A stretch of 64,000 nt of DNA from positions 30,080 through 94,079 of the forward strand of contig CAITTG010000049.1 of assembly GCA_903895255.1 (NCBI GenBank), in the 5' to 3' direction. The notes beneath the pieces are model-generated. The model was given only the letters and a program-made list of their open reading frames with translations, searched no databases and had not been told where the DNA came from. Made by a program: the position numbers and the translations under genes. Shown here one piece after another: positions 464 through 51,856 of the stretch. Position 1 is the stretch's first letter; each line of letters begins with the position of its first letter. This DNA is from an uncultured Verrucomicrobia subdivision 3 bacterium (GTDB lineage: Bacteria; Verrucomicrobiota; Verrucomicrobiia; Limisphaerales; UBA11358).

Positions 464-664
464 CTAAGCCGTAACCATTCATTTCAACCGCAGATGAACG
501 CAGATGAACGCAGATGAAAACGATGAGACTGCCAAAGTTTTGGCCCGCTAGTGATCAAGCATCATTGGGTGCGCCATTTTTCTTGTTTTCCGCCTTTCCC
601 CATCTGCGTTCATCTGCGTTTATCCGCGGTTAAAGTCTTTTTCAACTGCATGGCTCCGGCTAAA
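464..664. repeat. 201-bp MITE-like inverted-repeat element, copy 1
   Basis: The left arm CTAAGCCGTAACCATTCATTTCAACCGCAGATGAACGCAGATGAACGCAGATG is the reverse complement (one ~11-nt indel) of the right arm CATCTGCGTTCATCTGCGTTTATCCGCGGTTAAAGTC...CCGGCTAAA. Each arm holds a 3x tandem 10-mer (CGCAGATGAA). Confidence 0.8.
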
Positions 665-25296: not shown

Positions 25297-25497
25297 CTAA
25301 GCCGGAACTATTCATTTCAACCGCAGGTGAACGCGGATGAACGCAGATAAAACCATGGGGTAGGCAAGGGTTTGACCCGATATTGATCGAGAACTATTTG
25401 GTGCGTCATTTTTTCTCGCTTTCCGCCTTTCCCCATCTGCGTGAATCTGCGTGAATCTGCGGTTAATGTCCTTTTCAACTGAATTGTTCCGGCTAAG
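25297..25497. repeat. 201-bp MITE-like inverted-repeat element, copy 3
   Basis: Same 201-bp length and termini (CTAAGCCGGAAC...CCGGCTAAG). Its core is nearly identical to copy 2. Confidence 0.85.
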
Positions 25498-34614: not shown

Positions 34615-35970
34615 GTGACCTCCGCCATCGCCCGCACCGCCCGCGAAATTGTCCAGCGCCTCCAAACGGCGGGTTTCCGCGCGTTCTGGGTCGGCGGTTG
34701 CGTCCGCGATTTTCTCCTGGGCCGGGAACCGCAGGATTATGACATTGCCACCAGCGCTCGGCCCGCGGAAATGGAAAAGCTCTTCCCCCACACCATCCCC
34801 GTGGGCCGCCAGTTCGGCGTCCTCGTCGTGGTCGAGCAGGGGATGCCATTCCAGCTCGCCACCTTCCGCGCCGAGGCCGATTACCGCGATGGCCGCCGTC
34901 CCGAAACCGTCGTCTTCGCCGACGCCGAGGCCGACGCCCTTCGCCGCGACTTCACCGTCAACGGCCTGTTCTACGATCCGCTCCGCGATGAGTTTCACGA
35001 CTGGGTGGGCGGGCGCGCCGACCTCGCCGCCCGCTTGATTCGCACCATCGGTTCGCCCGCCGAACGCTTTGCTGAGGACCACCTCCGCCTCCTCCGCGCC
35101 GTCCGCTTCGCCGCCCAGCTGGATTTTGAAATTGAACCGGCCACCTTCGCCGCCGTCCGGCAGTTCGCCCCCCGCATCGCCACCGTCAGCGCCGAGCGCG
35201 TCCGGGACGAATTGATTAAGTTATTCACCCCGCCCCACGCCGCCCACGGCCTCGTGCTGCTGCGCGACAGCGGCCTGCTCGCGCACGTCCTCCCCGAACT
35301 CGCCGCCACCGATACCTGCGCCCAATCCCCCGACCATCACCCCGAGGGCACCGTCTTCGAACACCTCCGCCTCATGCTGGCGCAACTCCCCGAACCCTGC
35401 CCCGCCGCGTTGCCCTGGGCTGTGCTCCTCCACGACATCGCCAAGCCCGTCACCGCCACCACCGATCCCGTCACCGGCGGCATCCACTTTTATGGTCACG
35501 AAAAAGTGGGCGCGGACATGGCGCGGAACATCCTCCAGCGCCTGCGCTTTCCCAGCCTGGAAATCGATGAAATCGCCGCCTGCGTCCTCCACCACATGCA
35601 GTTCAAAGATGTGAAACAAATGCGCCAGTCCACCCGCCGGCGCATGATCCTCCGTGAAACCTTCCCGCTCGAACTCGCCCTCCACCGCCTCGACTGCCTC
35701 GGCTCCCACGGCTCATTGGAACATTACGACTTCATGCTCGCCCAGGCTGCCGACCTCGCGCAACAGCCCGCCCTGCATCCCCCGTTGCTGACCGGCCACG
35801 ACCTCATCGCCCTCGGCGTTCCTCCCGGCGCCGCCCTCGGCCGCCTCCTCCACGAACTCCGCGACCACCAGTTGCAAGGCGACCTCACCACCGCCGACCA
35901 GGCCCGCGCTTGGGTCGTCCAAAGTCTAAAGTCCACAGTCCAAAGTCCCGCCGGTAGTCCGCCGACTTGA
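34615..35970 (+). CDS. cca: CCA-adding tRNA nucleotidyltransferase (PolyA-pol head plus HD domain)
   Basis: GFRAFWVGGCVRDFLLGREPQDYDIAT, RAEADYRDGRRP and the HD region LLHDIAKP...GHEKVG. Confidence 0.9.
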   Translation: MTSAIARTAREIVQRLQTAGFRAFWVGGCVRDFLLGREPQDYDIATSARPAEMEKLFPHTIPVGRQFGVLVVVEQGMPFQLATFRAEADYRDGRRPETVVFADAEADALRRDFTVNGLFYDPLRDEFHDWVGGRADLAARLIRTIGSPAERFAEDHLRLLRAVRFAAQLDFEIEPATFAAVRQFAPRIATVSAERVRDELIKLFTPPHAAHGLVLLRDSGLLAHVLPELAATDTCAQSPDHHPEGTVFEHLRLMLAQLPEPCPAALPWAVLLHDIAKPVTATTDPVTGGIHFYGHEKVGADMARNILQRLRFPSLEIDEIAACVLHHMQFKDVKQMRQSTRRRMILRETFPLELALHRLDCLGSHGSLEHYDFMLAQAADLAQQPALHPPLLTGHDLIALGVPPGAALGRLLHELRDHQLQGDLTTADQARAWVVQSLKSTVQSPAGSPPT

Positions 35971-35998
35971 GACTTGGGACTATAGACTTGAGACATAT

Positions 35999-36652
35999 TT
36001 ATTTCCCTGGCAACGGATCCAGCGCCATCTTCCTGATTTCAATCTCCCCGCCCTCGCTTTGAATCCCAATAAATCCATTCGTCACCGTGCACTCCGTCGT
36101 CTCATTCATTAACCGCTCGTTTACGTAGGCTGTCACCGTGCCTCCCGCGCACACTGTCCGCACCGTGTCCCACTCCCCGATCGGATGTTCATTGGCCCCG
36201 CCGCGCAAGGGCAGGGGCGTGTTCGCATCCATCCCCCGGTGCTCCTTGCTCTCCGCCCCCGCCATCAAAAACAAATCCCCCTGCCGCGTGTGCTTGCCCT
36301 GCACCTGCACACACGCCGGCCACACCTTGTCCGGCAACTGCATGTGCACCAGCACCCCCGTGTTGTCCGCCTTCGGCGCCACCTTCCGAAACCGCCATTC
36401 CACCGTCAGCACATAATCCTGATACGCGCCCACCGACCGGATATACCCCGTGGGTTTGCCCGTGCAATGAATCACCCCGTTCGTCACCGACCACGTCGCC
36501 CGCGGGTCCGCGTCCCCCTTCATGCAAAAAGTCCAGCCCGAGAAATCCCGGCCGTTGAACAACTCCACGTGGCCGGTTGGCGTCACCGCCGTTTGCGCAT
36601 ACACCAGGTGGCAGGCGCCGAGCGCCGCCAATAAAGCAAGGGTGAATTTCAT
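35999..36652 (-). CDS. DUF1080 (3-keto-disaccharide hydrolase-like) secreted protein
   Basis: Signal peptide, then LFNGRDFSGWTF...WSVTNGVIHC...YQDYVLTVEWRF...NTGVLVHM, the typical DUF1080 pattern. Confidence 0.8.
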   Translation of the reverse strand: MKFTLALLAALGACHLVYAQTAVTPTGHVELFNGRDFSGWTFCMKGDADPRATWSVTNGVIHCTGKPTGYIRSVGAYQDYVLTVEWRFRKVAPKADNTGVLVHMQLPDKVWPACVQVQGKHTRQGDLFLMAGAESKEHRGMDANTPLPLRGGANEHPIGEWDTVRTVCAGGTVTAYVNERLMNETTECTVTNGFIGIQSEGGEIEIRKMALDPLPGK

Positions 36653-43556: not shown

Positions 43557-43741
43557 AGCATGCCCGATGGCCGTGTGATGTTAGAATAGAATCCATCTCC
43601 CCGCACCGGAGCGCTCCCACTCGTCCGCTGTCCCCCTTGAATATTGAAGTTTGATGATTCCCTGAAGTTTGGATTTTGAAATTTGAAGTTTCTCCCCCCC
43701 TACCGCATTCATCACGCTGGCCGGCATTCGGTTACCGGCTC

Positions 43742-47833: not shown

Positions 47834-50083
47834 ATGACAAAAGCAGTATTCTTGCCGCTCGGCCTCATTTTCCTCCTGGCTGCCGCTTCTCCCGCCTCGG
47901 CCCAGACCAGCCCCACGGATGTCGCCGTCAATGAAGCGGTCCTGCGCCAGTCCTATACCATTGTCCTGCGCCAGAAACTGGTCGCTGCCAAGTCAGCCGA
48001 ATCCAAGGGTGATTTGGTGGACGCCGCCAAGCTCTACCAGGAAGCCACCAGCCTCGCCCAGCAAATCGGCTCCGGTATCGATTTGGAAACCAGCCAGGCC
48101 ATTTCCGGCCTCGCCCGCACCCGTTTGACCCTCGCCCGCCAGGCCGAGGCCGGCCATGATTACCTCGAGGCCGACAAGCAAATCAACCAGGTTTTGCACG
48201 CCGATCCCAAGAATCCCGATGCCCTCGCGCTCAAACAGCAAAACGATCAGTTAATCGCCCAGAGCAAAGGTCACACGCCCGATCAGGCCACTATCGAGCA
48301 AATCCCCATCGTCAAAAATCAAAAAGTTGAGGCCGGTACCCTCGTGCAAGACGGCAAACTTCTCTATGAAATGGGCAAGTTGGAAGAATCCGAGGCCAAG
48401 CTGAAGCAAGCCCTGGCCCTGGACCCGGATAATGTCGCCGCTTTTTACTACCTCAACTTGATTCAACAGGCTCAGTACGCCCGCTCCGTGGCCAACCATA
48501 CCGAGGATACCCAAACCCGCATGCAACAGGTGGAAAAGCAGTGGGTGCTCCCCAAGAATCAGAATTTGATGATTGGCAATCCCTACGCCACCACCAACCT
48601 CGTTTACACTGGCCCCGGGCGTCAGGAAATTGTCAGTAAATTGGATCGCATTCACTTGGACACGGTTTCTTATGACGGCCTCCCCCTGAGCGAAGTGCTC
48701 CGCAGTCTCTCCGAACAGTCCAAAATTCGTGATCCCCAAAAAATTGGCGTAAATTTCCTGATTAACCCCAACGCCGATCTCTCCAGCACCGTGGAAACCA
48801 CCCCCTTGCAGGGTGGCTTCCCAGGCGAGGCTCGCCGCGGTGCGGTGGATCCGGCCACCGGTTTGCCCCAGGCTGATGCCGCCGCCGCCGCTGCGCCCGA
48901 GCAGGTCGATGTCGGTTCCGTGATCGTCAAGCTGAACCTGAATAATGTCAGCCTCGCGGAAGTGCTCGACGCCATTGTTCTCGTCGCCGATCACCCCATC
49001 AAATATTCCATTCAAGATTTTGCCGTCGTCTTCTCTTCCAAAGCCGCCGATGCCGCGCCTCTCTTCATGCGCACGTTCAAGGTGGATGCGAATACCTTCT
49101 TCCAAGGTTTGGAAAGTGTCAATTCCACGACTTTCGGTGGCACCAGCGGTAATGGCAGCAGCAGCGGTGGCGGCGGCGGTGGTGGTGGTGGTGGCGGCGG
49201 CGGCGGTGGCGGCCAGCAAAGCGGCGGAGCCGTGGTTCCCGTCGTTGACATGTCTCCCGGCGCCAGCCAGCTTCGCAACACCCAGAACGGCGGCGGTGGC
49301 GGTGGTCAGCAACAAAATGGCGGCGGTTTCGGCGGTAACACCGGCGGCGGTGCGGCCGGTGGCGCCGGTGGCGCGGCCGGCGGTTGGAACGTCAGCGGTT
49401 CCCAAGGCGGCGTGAATTTCCTCACGGTCAAACGCACCACGGACGAAATGGGCATTGTTGTCCGCAGTTTCTTTGCGGTGATGGGCGTCAATCTTAATCC
49501 GCCCAAAGCCCTGTTCTTCAATGATCGTCTCGGCTTGCTCTTCGTCAAGGCCACCGAATCCGACTTGGACACCATTGAACGCGCCATTGAGACCTTGAAC
49601 CAGCTCTCCCCGCAGGTTCATATCAAAGCCCGCTTCATCGAAGTGCAGCAAAATGACAGCACCGCGCTGGGTTTTGACTGGTATTTGGGCCAGTTCGGTG
49701 GTTCCGTGGTCGCCCAGGGCGGCACCGCCCCCTCTTTGAACACCGGCTCTGTCTCTGGCGCCAATCCCGTCGGCGCCTTTCCCGGCACCTCCGCCGCGAC
49801 CACCATCGCCCCTGCGGCCACCGACCAGTTGATTACCGGCGGCTTGCAAAACTCCGGCCCCACCGTCGGCACCATCACCGGCATTTTGACCAACCCCAAT
49901 TTCCGGGTTGCCATCCACGCGCTGGAACAGCGCTCCGGGGTGGAGGCCCTGGCCGAACCCGAGGTCACCACCACCAGCGGTCGCCAGACCCAAATGCGGG
50001 CCACCTCCCTCATCACCGTCGTAACCGGCGTTAACTTCCAGCAGGGCAACCCCGGCTCCACCACCGGCACCACCACCCCCTGA
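47834..50083 (+). CDS. secretin (PilQ/GspD family), N-terminal fragment: TPR-like region, N-domains, Gly-rich linker and first half of the secretin domain
   Basis: Signal peptide. The secretin core begins at VHIKARFIEVQQNDSTALGFDWYL...FRVAIHALEQRSGVEALAEPEVTTTSGRQTQM. The ORF stops at TGA 50081-50083, before the conserved C-terminal half. Confidence 0.85.
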   Translation: MTKAVFLPLGLIFLLAAASPASAQTSPTDVAVNEAVLRQSYTIVLRQKLVAAKSAESKGDLVDAAKLYQEATSLAQQIGSGIDLETSQAISGLARTRLTLARQAEAGHDYLEADKQINQVLHADPKNPDALALKQQNDQLIAQSKGHTPDQATIEQIPIVKNQKVEAGTLVQDGKLLYEMGKLEESEAKLKQALALDPDNVAAFYYLNLIQQAQYARSVANHTEDTQTRMQQVEKQWVLPKNQNLMIGNPYATTNLVYTGPGRQEIVSKLDRIHLDTVSYDGLPLSEVLRSLSEQSKIRDPQKIGVNFLINPNADLSSTVETTPLQGGFPGEARRGAVDPATGLPQADAAAAAAPEQVDVGSVIVKLNLNNVSLAEVLDAIVLVADHPIKYSIQDFAVVFSSKAADAAPLFMRTFKVDANTFFQGLESVNSTTFGGTSGNGSSSGGGGGGGGGGGGGGGGQQSGGAVVPVVDMSPGASQLRNTQNGGGGGGQQQNGGGFGGNTGGGAAGGAGGAAGGWNVSGSQGGVNFLTVKRTTDEMGIVVRSFFAVMGVNLNPPKALFFNDRLGLLFVKATESDLDTIERAIETLNQLSPQVHIKARFIEVQQNDSTALGFDWYLGQFGGSVVAQGGTAPSLNTGSVSGANPVGAFPGTSAATTIAPAATDQLITGGLQNSGPTVGTITGILTNPNFRVAIHALEQRSGVEALAEPEVTTTSGRQTQMRATSLITVVTGVNFQQGNPGSTTGTTTP
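49166..49213 (+). repeat. (GGY)16 trinucleotide tract encoding Gly16 inside the secretin linker
   Basis: ggt ggc ggc ggc ggt ggt ggt ggt ggt ggc ggc ggc ggc ggt ggc ggc. Further Gly/Gln/Asn-rich sequence follows. Confidence 0.9.
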
Positions 50084-50106
50084 TGAAACCCTCGCCGGCA
50101 TTATTA

Positions 50107-50256
50107 ACTTGTGATTTACCAATACTGGAATCCCTTACTTGTGATTTGCCAATACTGGAATCCCTAACTTGTCATTTACCATTACTGGAAACCTTAACTT
50201 GTGATTTACCAATACTGGAATCCTTAGCTTGTCATTTACCATTACTGGAATCCCCC
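50107..50256. repeat. 5 x 30-bp head-to-tail AT-rich tandem repeat
   Basis: Units: ACTTGTGATTTACCAATACTGGAATCCCTT / ...TTGCC...CCCTA / ACTTGTCATTTACCATTACTGGAAACCTTA / ...TCCTTA / GCTTGTCATTTACCATTACTGGAATCCCCC. There are no spacers. Confidence 0.95.
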
Positions 50257-50291
50257 GTATTTTCTACATTTTCTTAATTTTTTGGCGAAAT

Positions 50292-50948
50292 ATGAAAAGA
50301 TTTTATCAACCCAAGTTAATCACCCCCCTCCTCCCCCTCTGCGCCGTTCTGGTATCCGCTCCAGCAATGGCTCAGGTGGTGCAACAGGCAGTTCAAACCT
50401 CCGCCATTACCTTCACCACCCAAACGGTTGAAACCGGTCCGATTTTGGACGTTGTCCCCTATGTTTTGTCTGATGGCTACACAATCAACCTCACACTCAT
50501 CCCCAACTTGACCGAATTTAACGGGTACGATACGCCGCCAAATATTCCAAGCGTAACGGGAAACCTCAACGTGGTTCAACTGCCAATTGTATTGCCAAAT
50601 TTTTCAGTACGTGAAGTTGTCACCACGGTTAACGTATGGGATAACCAAACAGTGGTTCTTGGCGGTCTGATTTCCTCATCAATTCAAACCACCAAGGACA
50701 AAGTGCCCGTGCTGGGTGATTTGCCCATGCTGGGCACGCTCTTTCAAAGCCAAAGTAAAACTGCAATCAAAAATAATCTGATGATTTTTGTCACTTCATC
50801 AATTGTAGATCCTGCTGGTAACCGCGTGCATTCTGATGATGAATTGCCTTTTGCGCAAACCGGGATTCCACCGCAGCCACCGAACTCGAGCCATATTTCT
50901 GAGACGGTGGAAACTGTGCATTCTCTGCCTAGTGCCCCTAATAATTAA
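50292..50948 (+). CDS. secretin C-terminal half as a separate ORF with its own signal-peptide-like N-terminus
   Basis: MKRFYQPKLITPLLPLCAVLVSAPAMAQ, then ...TGPILDVVPYVLSDGYTINLTLIP...VWDNQTVVLGGLI...KVPVLGDLPMLGTLFQS...NLMIFVTSSIVDP, the canonical secretin C-terminus. Codon use is AT-richer. Confidence 0.8.
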   Translation: MKRFYQPKLITPLLPLCAVLVSAPAMAQVVQQAVQTSAITFTTQTVETGPILDVVPYVLSDGYTINLTLIPNLTEFNGYDTPPNIPSVTGNLNVVQLPIVLPNFSVREVVTTVNVWDNQTVVLGGLISSSIQTTKDKVPVLGDLPMLGTLFQSQSKTAIKNNLMIFVTSSIVDPAGNRVHSDDELPFAQTGIPPQPPNSSHISETVETVHSLPSAPNN

Positions 50949-50972
50949 TGTTCAGTCTGATTATTTTTTATT

Positions 50973-51856
50973 GTGGGGCGATTGCTGATCATAGACGGTC
51001 ATGCTTACGCTTACAGGGCGTTTTTTGCAATTCGTTCTTTGAGGGGGGGGGTGGGGGGGCGACGAATGCGATTTTCGGATTTATTAAAATCGTTGAAAAA
51101 TTGCTAAAATCCCTGAAACCAGAGTATCTGGCGGTGGTGTGGGACGGGGGTTTGAGCGCGGAACGGTTGGTTTTGCTGCCGGAATACAAGGCGCAGCGGC
51201 CGGCGATGCCGGATGATTTGCGGGTGCAATTTGATCCGATCATCGATTATTTGCGGGCGATGGGATTTTGTTCCCTGTGCCGGGATGGCGTTGAGGCGGA
51301 TGACTATATTGCCAGCCTGGCGCGGCAGGCGGAACGCTCGGGTTTGGCGGTGGTGATCGCCAGTGCGGACAAAGATTTTATGCAGTTGGTCTCGCCGGCC
51401 ATCGGGTTGTCCAACCCGAATGACAAGACCAACCGGATTTGGACGCGGGTGGAAGTCCGGGAAAAGACCGGGGTGGAACCGGAACAGATTGTGGACTGGC
51501 TGAGTTTAATGGGCGACGCGGTGGACAACATACCCGGTGTGCCAGGGGTGGGGCCAAAAAGGGCCGCAGAGCTGCTGGGCCAATTTGGCTCGGTGGCTGG
51601 TTTGTTGGAACGCATGGGCGAAGTCAAGCCCGCAGGCTTGCGTGAACGGGTGACCGCGGCGGCGGCGGTGATTCGCCGAAATTTGGAAATGGTGCGGTTG
51701 CGGGACGATTTGCCCTGTGAAATAGTGGCCAGCCATTGCCGGATCGGGGTTCCAGCGGTGGATAAATTGCGTGAATTGTACGGGCGATGGGAATTTAAGG
51801 GCATGCTGGCAGCGTTGGATGCAGCCGCGCCCGGCGGACAGCAGATTTTAATTTGA
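50973..51856 (+). pseudogene. stand-alone 5'-3' exonuclease (Pol I N-terminal/FEN-like) with an apparent 1-nt frameshift in a G9-T-G7 tract
   Basis: GTG 50973 gives VGRLLIIDGHAYAYRAFFAIRSLRGGVGG in one frame. From 51059 the adjacent frame gives ATNAIFGF...GVEADDYIASLA...SADKDFMQLV...GDAVDNIPGVPGVGPKRAAELL. One extra G would join them. This could be a homopolymer sequencing error. Confidence 0.75.
51043..51059. repeat. homopolymeric G9-T-G7 tract
   Basis: GGGGGGGGGTGGGGGGG read directly from the sequence, at the frameshift site. Confidence 0.95.

What the first reader, a model, noticed from the sequence alone, without database searches (positions are those of the whole stretch)
50084..50291. 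AT-rich 5 x 30-bp perfect-register tandem repeat sits exactly in the secretin break
Five head-to-tail 30-bp units (consensus ACTTGTGATTTACCAATACTGGAATCCYTA) lie at 50107-50256, with no spacers, in an otherwise GC-rich genome. Two unit variants alternate: GTGATTTACCAATACTGG and GTCATTTACCATTACTGG. The array ends 35 bp before the ATG of the second secretin ORF. It could therefore be a reiterated operator or promoter-UP array, an iteron-like protein-binding array, or a copy-number-variable switch controlling the downstream fragment. The unit length is a multiple of 3, and an ATG overlapping the upstream stop (TGATGA) opens a 64-codon ORF with the decapeptide repeat LTCDLPILES.
Basis: seen in the sequence. 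Interest (0 to 1): 0.7.

Follow-up and report, generated by a model that had tools for sequence, protein, structure and literature searches.

The report
Tandem-repeat spacer inside split secretin operon
The five 30-base repeats are real, but they are a lineage-specific minisatellite that has expanded the normally ~20-base gap between the two halves of a naturally split pilus-secretin gene; nothing tested here supports a promoter or operator array.

Summary
Five head-to-tail 30-nt units lie at 50107-50256, 35 nt before the ATG at 50292, and the sequence is identical in an independent metagenome assembly.

The "secretin break" is not a lesion. In about 65 of 80 Limisphaerales (Verrucomicrobia) loci the type-IV-pilus secretin is encoded as two adjacent genes 6-37 nt apart. 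The C-terminal half carries its own signal peptide.

Only a small subclade (C-half at least 90% identical) has an expanded spacer:
- Spacer lengths are 33, 84, 107, 153, 198-378 and 208 nt.
- Each lineage has a different repeat unit (19, about 18, 15 or 30 nt).
- In the 15-nt lineage the array has 3 or 15 units between samples whose 2.6 kb of upstream flank is identical.

No sigma-70-like promoter, terminator, RNA structure or Rfam family was found. The unit occurs nowhere else that was searched.

Best reading: this is an intercistronic VNTR at a slippage hot spot. It may be tolerated because a stop-free frame lets ribosomes travel from the first half's stop to the second half's start, as in mycobacterial MIRUs. 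Here that frame is the 64-codon ORF. This relay idea is suggestive, not shown.

The array itself is ordinary in kind. It is of moderate interest because of where it sits.

The parts
47834..50083 (+). N-terminal half of the split type-IV-pilus secretin (749 aa). It contains TPR repeats, N domains and the first ~39 positions of the Pfam Secretin domain, and ends ...GTTTP-TGA.
   Evidence: ORF; TPR hits. Its tail concatenated with the mature C-half gives a single PF00263 match covering model positions 1-169. Fused orthologues run straight through the junction.
50083..50277 (+). 64-codon ORF (MKPSPA-[LTCDLPILES]x5-PVFSTFS). Its ATG shares one base with the N-half stop (TGATG), and its TAA lies 14 nt before the C-half ATG. 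It is a candidate ribosome-relay ORF, not a conserved protein.
   Evidence: Chance probability of such a bridging ORF is about 0.02-0.03. No Pfam family. Not called as a gene in other assemblies. The peptides of the equivalent ORFs in sister lineages are unrelated.
50084..50106 (+). 23-nt non-repeated leader of the expanded spacer (TGAAACCCTCGCCGGCATTATTA). AAACCCTCGCCGGCA resembles CCACCCTCGCACCGCCGGCAA in the leader of the sister lineage L100/L101; this was compared by eye and not scored.
   Evidence: visual comparison, not tested statistically.
50107..50256 (+). Five head-to-tail 30-nt units, 38% GC, with a 60-nt higher-order structure (units 2-3 resemble units 4-5).
50257..50291 (+). Proximal spacer GTATTTTCTACATTTTCTTAATTTTTTGGCGAAAT. 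Its last ~21 nt correspond to the whole ancestral intergenic spacer (L003: TTTTAATCATTTGGCGAAATT). It contains the weak ribosome-binding region TTTTTGGCGAAAT shared by the whole subclade.
   Evidence: The predicted Shine-Dalgarno pairing is only -1.9 kcal/mol.
50292..50948 (+). C-terminal half of the split secretin (218 aa). It has its own Sec-type signal peptide (MKRFYQPKLITPLLPLCAVLVSAPAMAQ), followed by Pfam Secretin model positions 40-169.

Best explanation
The array is a lineage-specific minisatellite (VNTR). It has expanded the intercistronic spacer of a two-gene, naturally split type-IV-pilus secretin operon in a Limisphaerales bacterium.

**Shown**
- The split is ancestral and conserved, with a 6-37-nt spacer.
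- In one small subclade this spacer is a hot spot where different tandem repeats (19, about 18, 15 and 30 nt) have arisen.
- At least one sister array changes copy number between otherwise identical genomes.
- The 30-nt array is unique to the window's lineage. It lies between the unchanged stop of the first half and the conserved ribosome-binding stretch of the second half.

**Inferred**
- The array grew by replication slippage or unequal recombination. Its 60-nt higher-order structure supports this.
- It may have started from a duplication of the stop-codon/spacer junction itself.
- The two halves remain co-transcribed, because there is no terminator and no promoter between them.

**Hypothesised mechanism of tolerance**
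- The unit length is a multiple of three.
- One frame is stop-free from an ATG overlapping the first half's stop to a TAA 14 nt before the second half's ATG.
- Ribosomes finishing the first half could therefore translate across the array and re-initiate on the weakly Shine-Dalgarno-led second half. This would keep the halves translationally coupled whatever the copy number, as proposed for mycobacterial MIRUs.
- The peptide itself would be irrelevant.
For: **The repeat is real and reproducible:**

**The split secretin is conserved**
- All 120 best hits to the C-half are 196-245 aa with a variable signal peptide and a conserved mature part.
- Of 80 genome loci, about 65 are split with a 6-37-nt spacer and about 7 are fused.
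- The Secretin domain spans the junction.

**Hot spot.** Spacer lengths in the subclade with the C-half at least 90% identical:

| Lineage (loci) | Spacer | Repeat |
|---|---|---|
| L085 | 33 nt | none |
| L098/L099 | 84 nt | none called |
| L108-L115 | 107 nt | 19-nt unit, ~2 copies by TRF |
| L084/L097 | 153 nt | ~18-nt unit x4 |
| L100 | 198 nt | 3 x 15 nt |
| L101 | 378 nt | 15 x 15 nt |
| window | 208 nt | 5 x 30 nt |

Relatives at 83-87% identity have about 20-24 nt.

**Copy-number polymorphism in the sister lineage**
- L100 and L101 are identical over 2,622 nt upstream.
- L082 and L083 are identical over 2,160 nt downstream, yet carry at least 4 versus 2 copies of one unit subtype.

**Units are unrelated between lineages:**

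**No promoter or terminator, no RNA structure (z = 0.05), no Rfam family.**

**Relay ORF**
- An ATG-started ORF begins -1 to +21 nt from the N-half stop and ends -4 to 19 nt from the C-half ATG in the window, in L100/L101 and in L108. L108 was examined only after the rule had been formulated.
- Per-lineage null probabilities are 0.017-0.08.
- The C-half has a weak Shine-Dalgarno sequence throughout the family.
- MIRU precedent: PMC12548453 and PMC3184786.
Against: **No copy-number variation in the window's lineage.** None is seen for the 30-nt array itself in the three assemblies available. The 153-nt and 107-nt sister arrays are also length-stable across samples.

**The relay ORF is not universal**
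- L084/L097 have an open frame but only a TTG start halfway along.
- L098 has none that meets the criterion.
- The criterion was set after seeing the first cases. The single out-of-sample test has p of about 0.08-0.18.
- Some open frame across an array of identical units is expected by chance 84% of the time.

**No sign of coding constraint.** Differences between units fall mostly on first codon positions of the ORF, so there is no such signature (inspection).

**Origin of the unit is weakly supported.** Derivation from the ancestral junction rests on a 10/10 match to L002 (p about 0.007, post hoc). Other comparisons are not significant.

**No expression data exist.** Co-transcription and coupling are inferred only.
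Confidence: 0.6

Rival explanations
1. The array is a selectively neutral minisatellite with no relay function. It is junk expansion in a spacer, and the second half is translated independently from its own A/U-rich leader. The open frame is a by-product of repeating a stop-free 30-mer.
For: Some frame open across the array is expected in 84% of permuted arrays. Two of the five expanded lineages lack a qualifying relay ORF. Substitution density in the L084/L097 spacer (about 3-4%) is similar to that of the flanking genes. The peptide sequences are unrelated between lineages.
Against: An ATG overlapping the N-half stop, plus a stop 14 nt before the next ATG, has a chance probability of about 0.02. 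The same geometry recurs in two other lineages with unrelated units, nominal combined p about 1e-3, my own post-hoc combination of the per-lineage null probabilities. The two regular arrays have unit lengths (15 and 30 nt) that are multiples of three.
Confidence: 0.3
2. The array is a reiterated protein-binding site (operator or iteron-like) or an internal promoter or UP array. It would control the second secretin half and the downstream 5'-3' exonuclease gene.
For: Five regularly spaced, nearly identical AT-rich units lie immediately upstream of a gene start. A 30-nt period is close to three helical turns (established DNA geometry; inference).
Against: No sigma-70-like -35/-10 pair lies on either strand within the array. 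The unit is absent elsewhere in the window, in JGI metagenomes, in viral contigs and in 110 related loci. More than 65 relatives need no such element. Sister arrays at the same site are unrelated in sequence and partly GC-rich. There is no replication gene or origin context.
Confidence: 0.07
3. The 64-codon ORF encodes a functional small repeat protein, or it is a frameshift- or readthrough-accessed C-terminal extension of the first secretin half.
For: The frame is open with an ATG start, the unit is a multiple of three, and several differences between units are synonymous or conservative.
Against: No Pfam family. Not called by gene finders in other assemblies. The N-half stop is at the ancestral position in all relatives. 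The ORF is not in the N-half frame, and the +1 frame hits a stop in unit 1. No equivalent peptide exists in sister lineages.
Confidence: 0.03

Closest known systems
MIRU-VNTR loci of Mycobacterium (mycobacterial interspersed repetitive units)
   Same: Both are tandemly repeated units lying between co-oriented genes of an operon. Both carry a short ORF whose ends overlap or abut the flanking stop and start, so that translation stays coupled. Copy number is polymorphic between strains (PMC12548453, PMC3184786). Here.
   Different: MIRUs are 40-100 bp, form one interspersed and possibly mobile family of about 40-50 loci per genome, and have a conserved sequence. Here the unit is 30 nt and is found at one locus only. 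Sister lineages have unrelated units at the same site, which suggests local slippage rather than insertion of a mobile unit.
Generic bacterial minisatellites/VNTRs and contingency (phase-variable) simple-sequence repeats
   Same: Head-to-tail repeats generated and resized by slipped-strand mispairing. There are large copy-number differences between near-identical genomes in the sister lineage.
   Different: Classical contingency repeats have 1-9-nt units placed in a promoter spacer or a reading frame, so that copy number switches expression on or off (established knowledge). Here the units are 15-30 nt, sit between two cistrons and preserve the frame, so no on/off logic is evident.
Iterons and operator arrays
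   Same: Several direct repeats of about 20-30 nt with regular phasing.
   Different: There is no replication initiator or origin nearby, no conservation of the repeat among relatives and no second copy elsewhere.
Split secretin RhcC1/RhcC2 of rhizobial-type type III secretion systems (context, not the repeat)
   Same: A secretin encoded as separate N-terminal and C-terminal genes as a conserved feature of a lineage (PMC3574062).
   Different: That split is in a T3SS secretin, and the two genes are separated by other genes. Here a type-IV-pilus-like secretin is cut inside the Secretin domain itself. The two genes are adjacent and 6-37 nt apart, and each half has its own signal peptide.

Membership tests
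Bacterial minisatellite / VNTR | Head-to-tail repeats of a unit of about 10-100 nt without spacers | tested here: met
   Period 30, 5.0 copies, no spacers.
Bacterial minisatellite / VNTR | Copy number differs between strains or populations | tested here: inconclusive
   The window lineage has the same 208-nt gap in three assemblies. The sister-lineage array at the same site has 3 versus 15 units with identical upstream flanks.
MIRU-like intercistronic repeat | Located between co-oriented genes of one operon | tested here: met
   It lies between the two secretin halves. There is no terminator or promoter match between them. Relatives have a 6-37-nt spacer.
MIRU-like intercistronic repeat | Internal ORF whose start and stop overlap or abut those of the flanking genes | tested here: met
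   The ATG shares a base with the upstream TGA, and the TAA lies 14 nt before the downstream ATG. Function is untested.
MIRU-like intercistronic repeat | Interspersed family: the same unit at many loci in the genome | tested here: not met
   No other copy in the 64-kb window, in JGI metagenome contigs, in viral contigs or in 110 related loci. The complete genome was not available.
MIRU-like intercistronic repeat | Unit length 40-100 bp with a conserved family sequence | tested here: not met
   The unit is 30 nt. Sister arrays are unrelated in sequence.
Sigma-70 promoter / UP-element array | -35 and -10 hexamers 16-18 nt apart downstream of the AT-rich element | tested here: not met
   No match at 9 of 12 or better on either strand within 50084-50291.
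Iteron array | Adjacent replication initiator gene or origin; repeat conserved among related replicons | tested here: not met
   The neighbours are pilus genes and a 5'-3' exonuclease. The repeat is not conserved.
Iteron / operator array | Specific binding by a protein | not testable with these tools
   Needs EMSA or pull-down.
Contingency simple-sequence repeat | Unit of 1-9 nt in a promoter spacer or coding frame, so that copy number toggles expression | tested here: not met
   The unit is 30 nt, sits between cistrons and is a multiple of three.
CRISPR array | Repeats separated by unique spacers | tested here: not met
   The units abut one another with no spacers.
Structured RNA family (Rfam) | Match to a covariance model, or folding better than shuffles | tested here: not met
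   No relevant Rfam hit at E <= 1. Fold z-score 0.05.

The most novel reading that the evidence does not exclude
In a clade of Limisphaerales the pilus secretin is made from two separately exported polypeptides that must be produced in matched amounts. The gap between their genes has become a hypervariable repeat hot spot. Only those arrays that keep a stop-free 'relay' reading frame survive there. Such a frame hands ribosomes from the first gene's stop to the second gene's start. This would be a MIRU-like translational relay evolved independently, by local slippage rather than by a mobile element, in a phylum where nothing of the kind has been described.
Probability: 0.3. Interest if true: 0.55.

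Novelty: new member of a known kind. Interest (0 to 1): 0.35.

Why it matters
On its own the array is one more bacterial minisatellite. Its setting makes it useful in three ways.
- It marks the junction of a conserved, naturally split secretin whose two halves each carry a signal peptide. I found this described only for rhizobial T3SS secretins, and there with a different geometry.
- Sister lineages show independent repeat expansions and large copy-number differences at exactly this junction. That makes it a natural experiment on how much spacing and translational coupling matter for producing the two halves of one outer-membrane channel.
- It could serve as a strain-typing marker for these uncultured freshwater and peatland Verrucomicrobia.

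If the relay-ORF idea holds, MIRU-type coupling would extend beyond mycobacteria.

Tried and rejected
- **Pseudogene break.** Rejected: the split is conserved in about 65 of 80 loci and in all 120 best protein hits.
- **Assembly artefact.** Rejected: the sequence is identical in an independent scaffold, and a third assembly has the same gap.
- **Interspersed or mobile repeat family.**
  - The scan of JGI metagenome contigs gave only three isolated single hits in unrelated DNA.
  - The viral contig scan gave none.
  - There was none in the related loci.
- **Promoter or terminator.** None found.
- **Structured RNA.** Fold z-score 0.05 and no Rfam family.
- **Sigma-54 or CRP-like motifs.** Inspected by eye; the spacing does not fit. 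This is not a tool result.
- **Homology between the 30-nt unit and the sister 15-nt units.** No better than permutations.
- **Origin of the unit from the ancestral stop/spacer junction.** Only the L002 comparison is nominally significant (p about 0.007). The others are not, so this is kept as an inference only.
- **Faster evolution of the spacer than of the flanks in L084 versus L097.** Not seen.
- **Weaker Shine-Dalgarno sequence in the array lineages than in relatives.** No difference; all are weak.
- **Search with the N-half tail, to find relatives that translate the array as a C-terminal extension.** None found. All close hits end at the same ...TP stop.

Full report
**1. The observation**

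The sequence at 50084-50291 is as described.
- Tandem Repeats Finder gives one array at 50105-50254 with period 30, 5.0 copies, 87% matches and score 230. It is the strongest array in the window.
- The 24-nt core occurs five times in perfect 30-nt register (50107, 50137, 50167, 50197, 50227). It occurs nowhere else in the 64 kb, and 0 matches are expected from shuffles.
- Units 1, 2 and 4 are of one variant type and units 3 and 5 of another. Units 2-3 and 4-5 form a 60-nt higher-order repeat.
- The array has 38% GC, against 59.4% for the window.
- The ORF 50083-50277 (64 codons, LTCDLPILES repeats) exists, and its ATG shares the A of the upstream TGA.
- An independent metagenome scaffold (L001) is identical over the whole region. 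A third assembly has the same 208-nt gap. The array is therefore not an assembly artefact.

**2. The surroundings: the "break" is a conserved gene split**

The neighbourhood is a Verrucomicrobia-type type-IV-pilus cluster. In order it contains:
- PilM;
- an Amuc_1100-family protein;
- a 261-aa protein;
- a 749-aa TPR/secretin N-terminal protein;
- a 218-aa protein matching Pfam Secretin model positions 40-169;
- a 5'-3' exonuclease.

The 218-aa protein is not a fragment of a broken gene.
- All 120 best database hits are 196-245 aa.
- They begin with a variable signal-peptide-like segment ending in A-x-A-Q, followed by a highly conserved mature part.

Eighty Limisphaerales MAG loci were fetched.
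- About 65 have the same two adjacent ORFs separated by only 6-37 nt, typically 17-25 nt.
- About 7 have a single fused ORF. In these the junction is a Gly/Asn/Ser/Thr-rich loop.

The tail of the window's first ORF, concatenated with the mature second ORF, gives one complete Secretin domain match covering model positions 1-169. A fused orthologue gives the same result. The secretin is therefore naturally split inside its pore-forming domain. A split secretin is otherwise described for rhizobial-type T3SS (RhcC1/RhcC2; PMC3574062).

**3. The array is an expansion of a normally tiny spacer, at a hot spot**

The last ~21 nt before the ATG (TTAATTTTTTGGCGAAAT) correspond to the entire spacer of the closest genome relative (L003: TTTTAATCATTTGGCGAAATT). 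The stop of the first half is at the ancestral position (…TTTP-stop). About 187 nt have therefore been added in between.

Relatives whose C-half is 83-87% identical have spacers of about 20-24 nt. Only the subclade at 90% identity or more has expanded spacers, and each lineage is different:

| Lineage | Spacer | Repeat content |
|---|---|---|
| L085 | 33 nt | no repeat |
| L098/L099 (closest to the window, 93%) | 84 nt | no array called |
| L108-L115 | 107 nt | 19-nt unit; TRF calls ~2 copies, a third degenerate copy is visible by eye |
| L084/L097 | 153 nt | ~18-nt unit x4 |
| L100, L101 and truncated contigs L082, L083, L102-L107 | 198 and 378 nt | 15-nt unit GCACCCCGTTGCAAT |
| window | 208 nt | 5 x 30 nt |

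The 30-nt unit is no more similar to the 15-nt units than permuted sequences are. It is absent from every other locus fetched, from viral contigs and from JGI metagenome contigs apart from three isolated chance hits in unrelated DNA.

**4. Instability**

In the 15-nt lineage the array is clearly polymorphic.
- L100 has 3 units and L101 has 15, while their 2,622 nt upstream are identical.
- L082 and L101 carry four or more copies of the proximal subtype. L083, L103-L105 and L107 carry two. L082 and L083 are identical over 2,160 nt downstream.

By contrast:
- The 153-nt array has the same length in two samples about 3% diverged, with 5-6 substitutions in the spacer. That rate is no higher than in the flanking genes.
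- The 107-nt spacer is constant in eight contigs.
- The window's array is constant in three assemblies.

**5. What it is not**

- There is no sigma-70-like hexamer pair and no intrinsic-terminator-like site in or next to the array.
- The RNA folds no better than shuffles (z = 0.05).
- There is no relevant Rfam match.
- The 64-aa product has no Pfam family, and gene callers did not call it in other assemblies.
- The repeat sequence is not conserved between sister lineages, and some sister arrays are GC-rich. A conserved operator, iteron or UP element is therefore unlikely.

**6. How it most likely works**

*Shown:*
- It is an intercistronic minisatellite at a lineage-restricted hot spot.
- It lies between an unchanged stop and an unchanged weak ribosome-binding stretch. 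Predicted anti-Shine-Dalgarno pairing is only -1.9 kcal/mol, which is the family median.

*Inferred:*
- It grew by slippage or unequal recombination.
- The unit may derive from a duplication of the junction itself. Evidence for this:
  - CC[CT]-TAA-…TCATTTACCA… in the unit resembles L002's CCG-TAA-TCATTTACCA…, p about 0.007 post hoc; the other comparisons are not significant.
  - Three of the four internal unit junctions carry TAA or TAG in the frame of the first half.

*Hypothesised:* a relay ORF keeps the two halves translationally coupled.
- In the window, an ATG overlapping the first half's stop opens a frame that stays open through all units and ends 14 nt before the next ATG.
- With the repeat structure preserved, this happens in about 2-3% of permutations. 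Some open frame across the array occurs in 84%.
- The same geometry is present in L100/L101: the ATG is 14 nt after the stop, the ORF has 54 or 114 codons, and it ends 19 nt before the ATG.
- It is also present in L108, which was examined after the rule was set: the ATG is 21 nt after the stop, and the ORF's stop overlaps the next ATG as ATGA.
- It is absent in L084/L097 and L098.
- Per-lineage null probabilities are 0.017-0.08. Three of five lineages meet the rule, which gives a nominal p of about 1e-3. This figure is my own arithmetic on the numbers. The rule was post hoc, and the only out-of-sample case has p of about 0.08-0.18.
- The peptides are unrelated between lineages. If anything matters, it is translation and not the product.
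- This is the logic proposed for mycobacterial MIRUs (PMC12548453; PMC3184786).

**7. Comparison with known kinds**

It works like, and is best filed under, bacterial VNTR/minisatellites. In architecture it resembles MIRU-VNTRs: it is intercistronic, co-oriented with the genes, and carries an ORF abutting the flanking genes. It fails two defining MIRU features, dispersal as an interspersed family and the 40-100-bp conserved unit. It is therefore MIRU-like in mechanism at most, not a member. It fails the tested features of promoters, iterons, contingency simple-sequence repeats, CRISPR arrays and Rfam families.

**8. Verdict**

- The array is a new example of a known kind of element, and ordinary in itself.
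- Its setting is the notable part: a repeat hot spot exactly at the junction of a conserved split secretin, with a possible translational relay.
- Interest 0.35. Confidence in the VNTR-in-operon-spacer reading is about 0.6 as stated. The relay component alone is about 0.3.

Noticed in passing
window 47834-50083 and 50292-50948; loci L002-L081: The type-IV-pilus secretin is encoded as two adjacent genes cut inside the Pfam Secretin domain (model positions 1-39 and 40-169). The C-terminal half has its own signal peptide. This split is conserved in about 65 of 80 Limisphaerales MAG loci, and about 7 are fused. The only split secretins I found in the literature are RhcC1/RhcC2 of rhizobial T3SS. 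This may be more interesting than the repeat itself.
   Followed up: partly
window 51042-51060 (within the exonuclease gene 50948-51856); also L001, L082, L090-L093, L100, L108: The 5'-3' exonuclease gene is frameshifted at a poly-G tract (GAGGGGGGGGGTGGGGGGGCG). The true N-terminus (GRLLIIDGHAYAYRAFF) is in another frame (50973-51107). Other assemblies and lineages call products of 294, 302, 308, 267, 251 or 227 aa. The tract length therefore differs repeatedly, either as a homopolymer sequencing-error hot spot or as real slippage.
   Followed up: partly
window 489-628, 854-998, 25322-25461: Three copies of an element with CGCAGATGAA x3, about 85 nt of spacer, then the inverted TTCATCTGCG x3, followed by CCTCCGTG x3. 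Two copies lie in tandem ~365-nt blocks at the start of the window. This looks like an interspersed repeat with tandem-repeat inverted ends.
   Followed up: no
window 35917-35994: GTCCAAA x4.6 followed 15 nt later by GACTTGA x4.4, roughly its inverted complement. It lies between convergent ORFs (34615-35970 + and 35999-36652 -). It may be a long hairpin or terminator built from heptamer repeats.
   Followed up: no
window 43663-43691: TGAAGTT x4 in the AT-rich region about 500 nt upstream of pilM (44191).
   Followed up: no
window 50292-50948 versus 47834-50083: The C-terminal secretin half has 47.5% GC and the N-terminal half 60.3%, against a window mean of 59.4%. The whole region from about 42 kb onward has lower GC (0.51-0.57).
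   Followed up: no
window 49164-49213: A (GCG)n / GCGGCGGTG repeat encodes a run of about 15 glycines in the N-terminal secretin half. Fused and split orthologues also have long poly-Gly tracts here.
   Followed up: no
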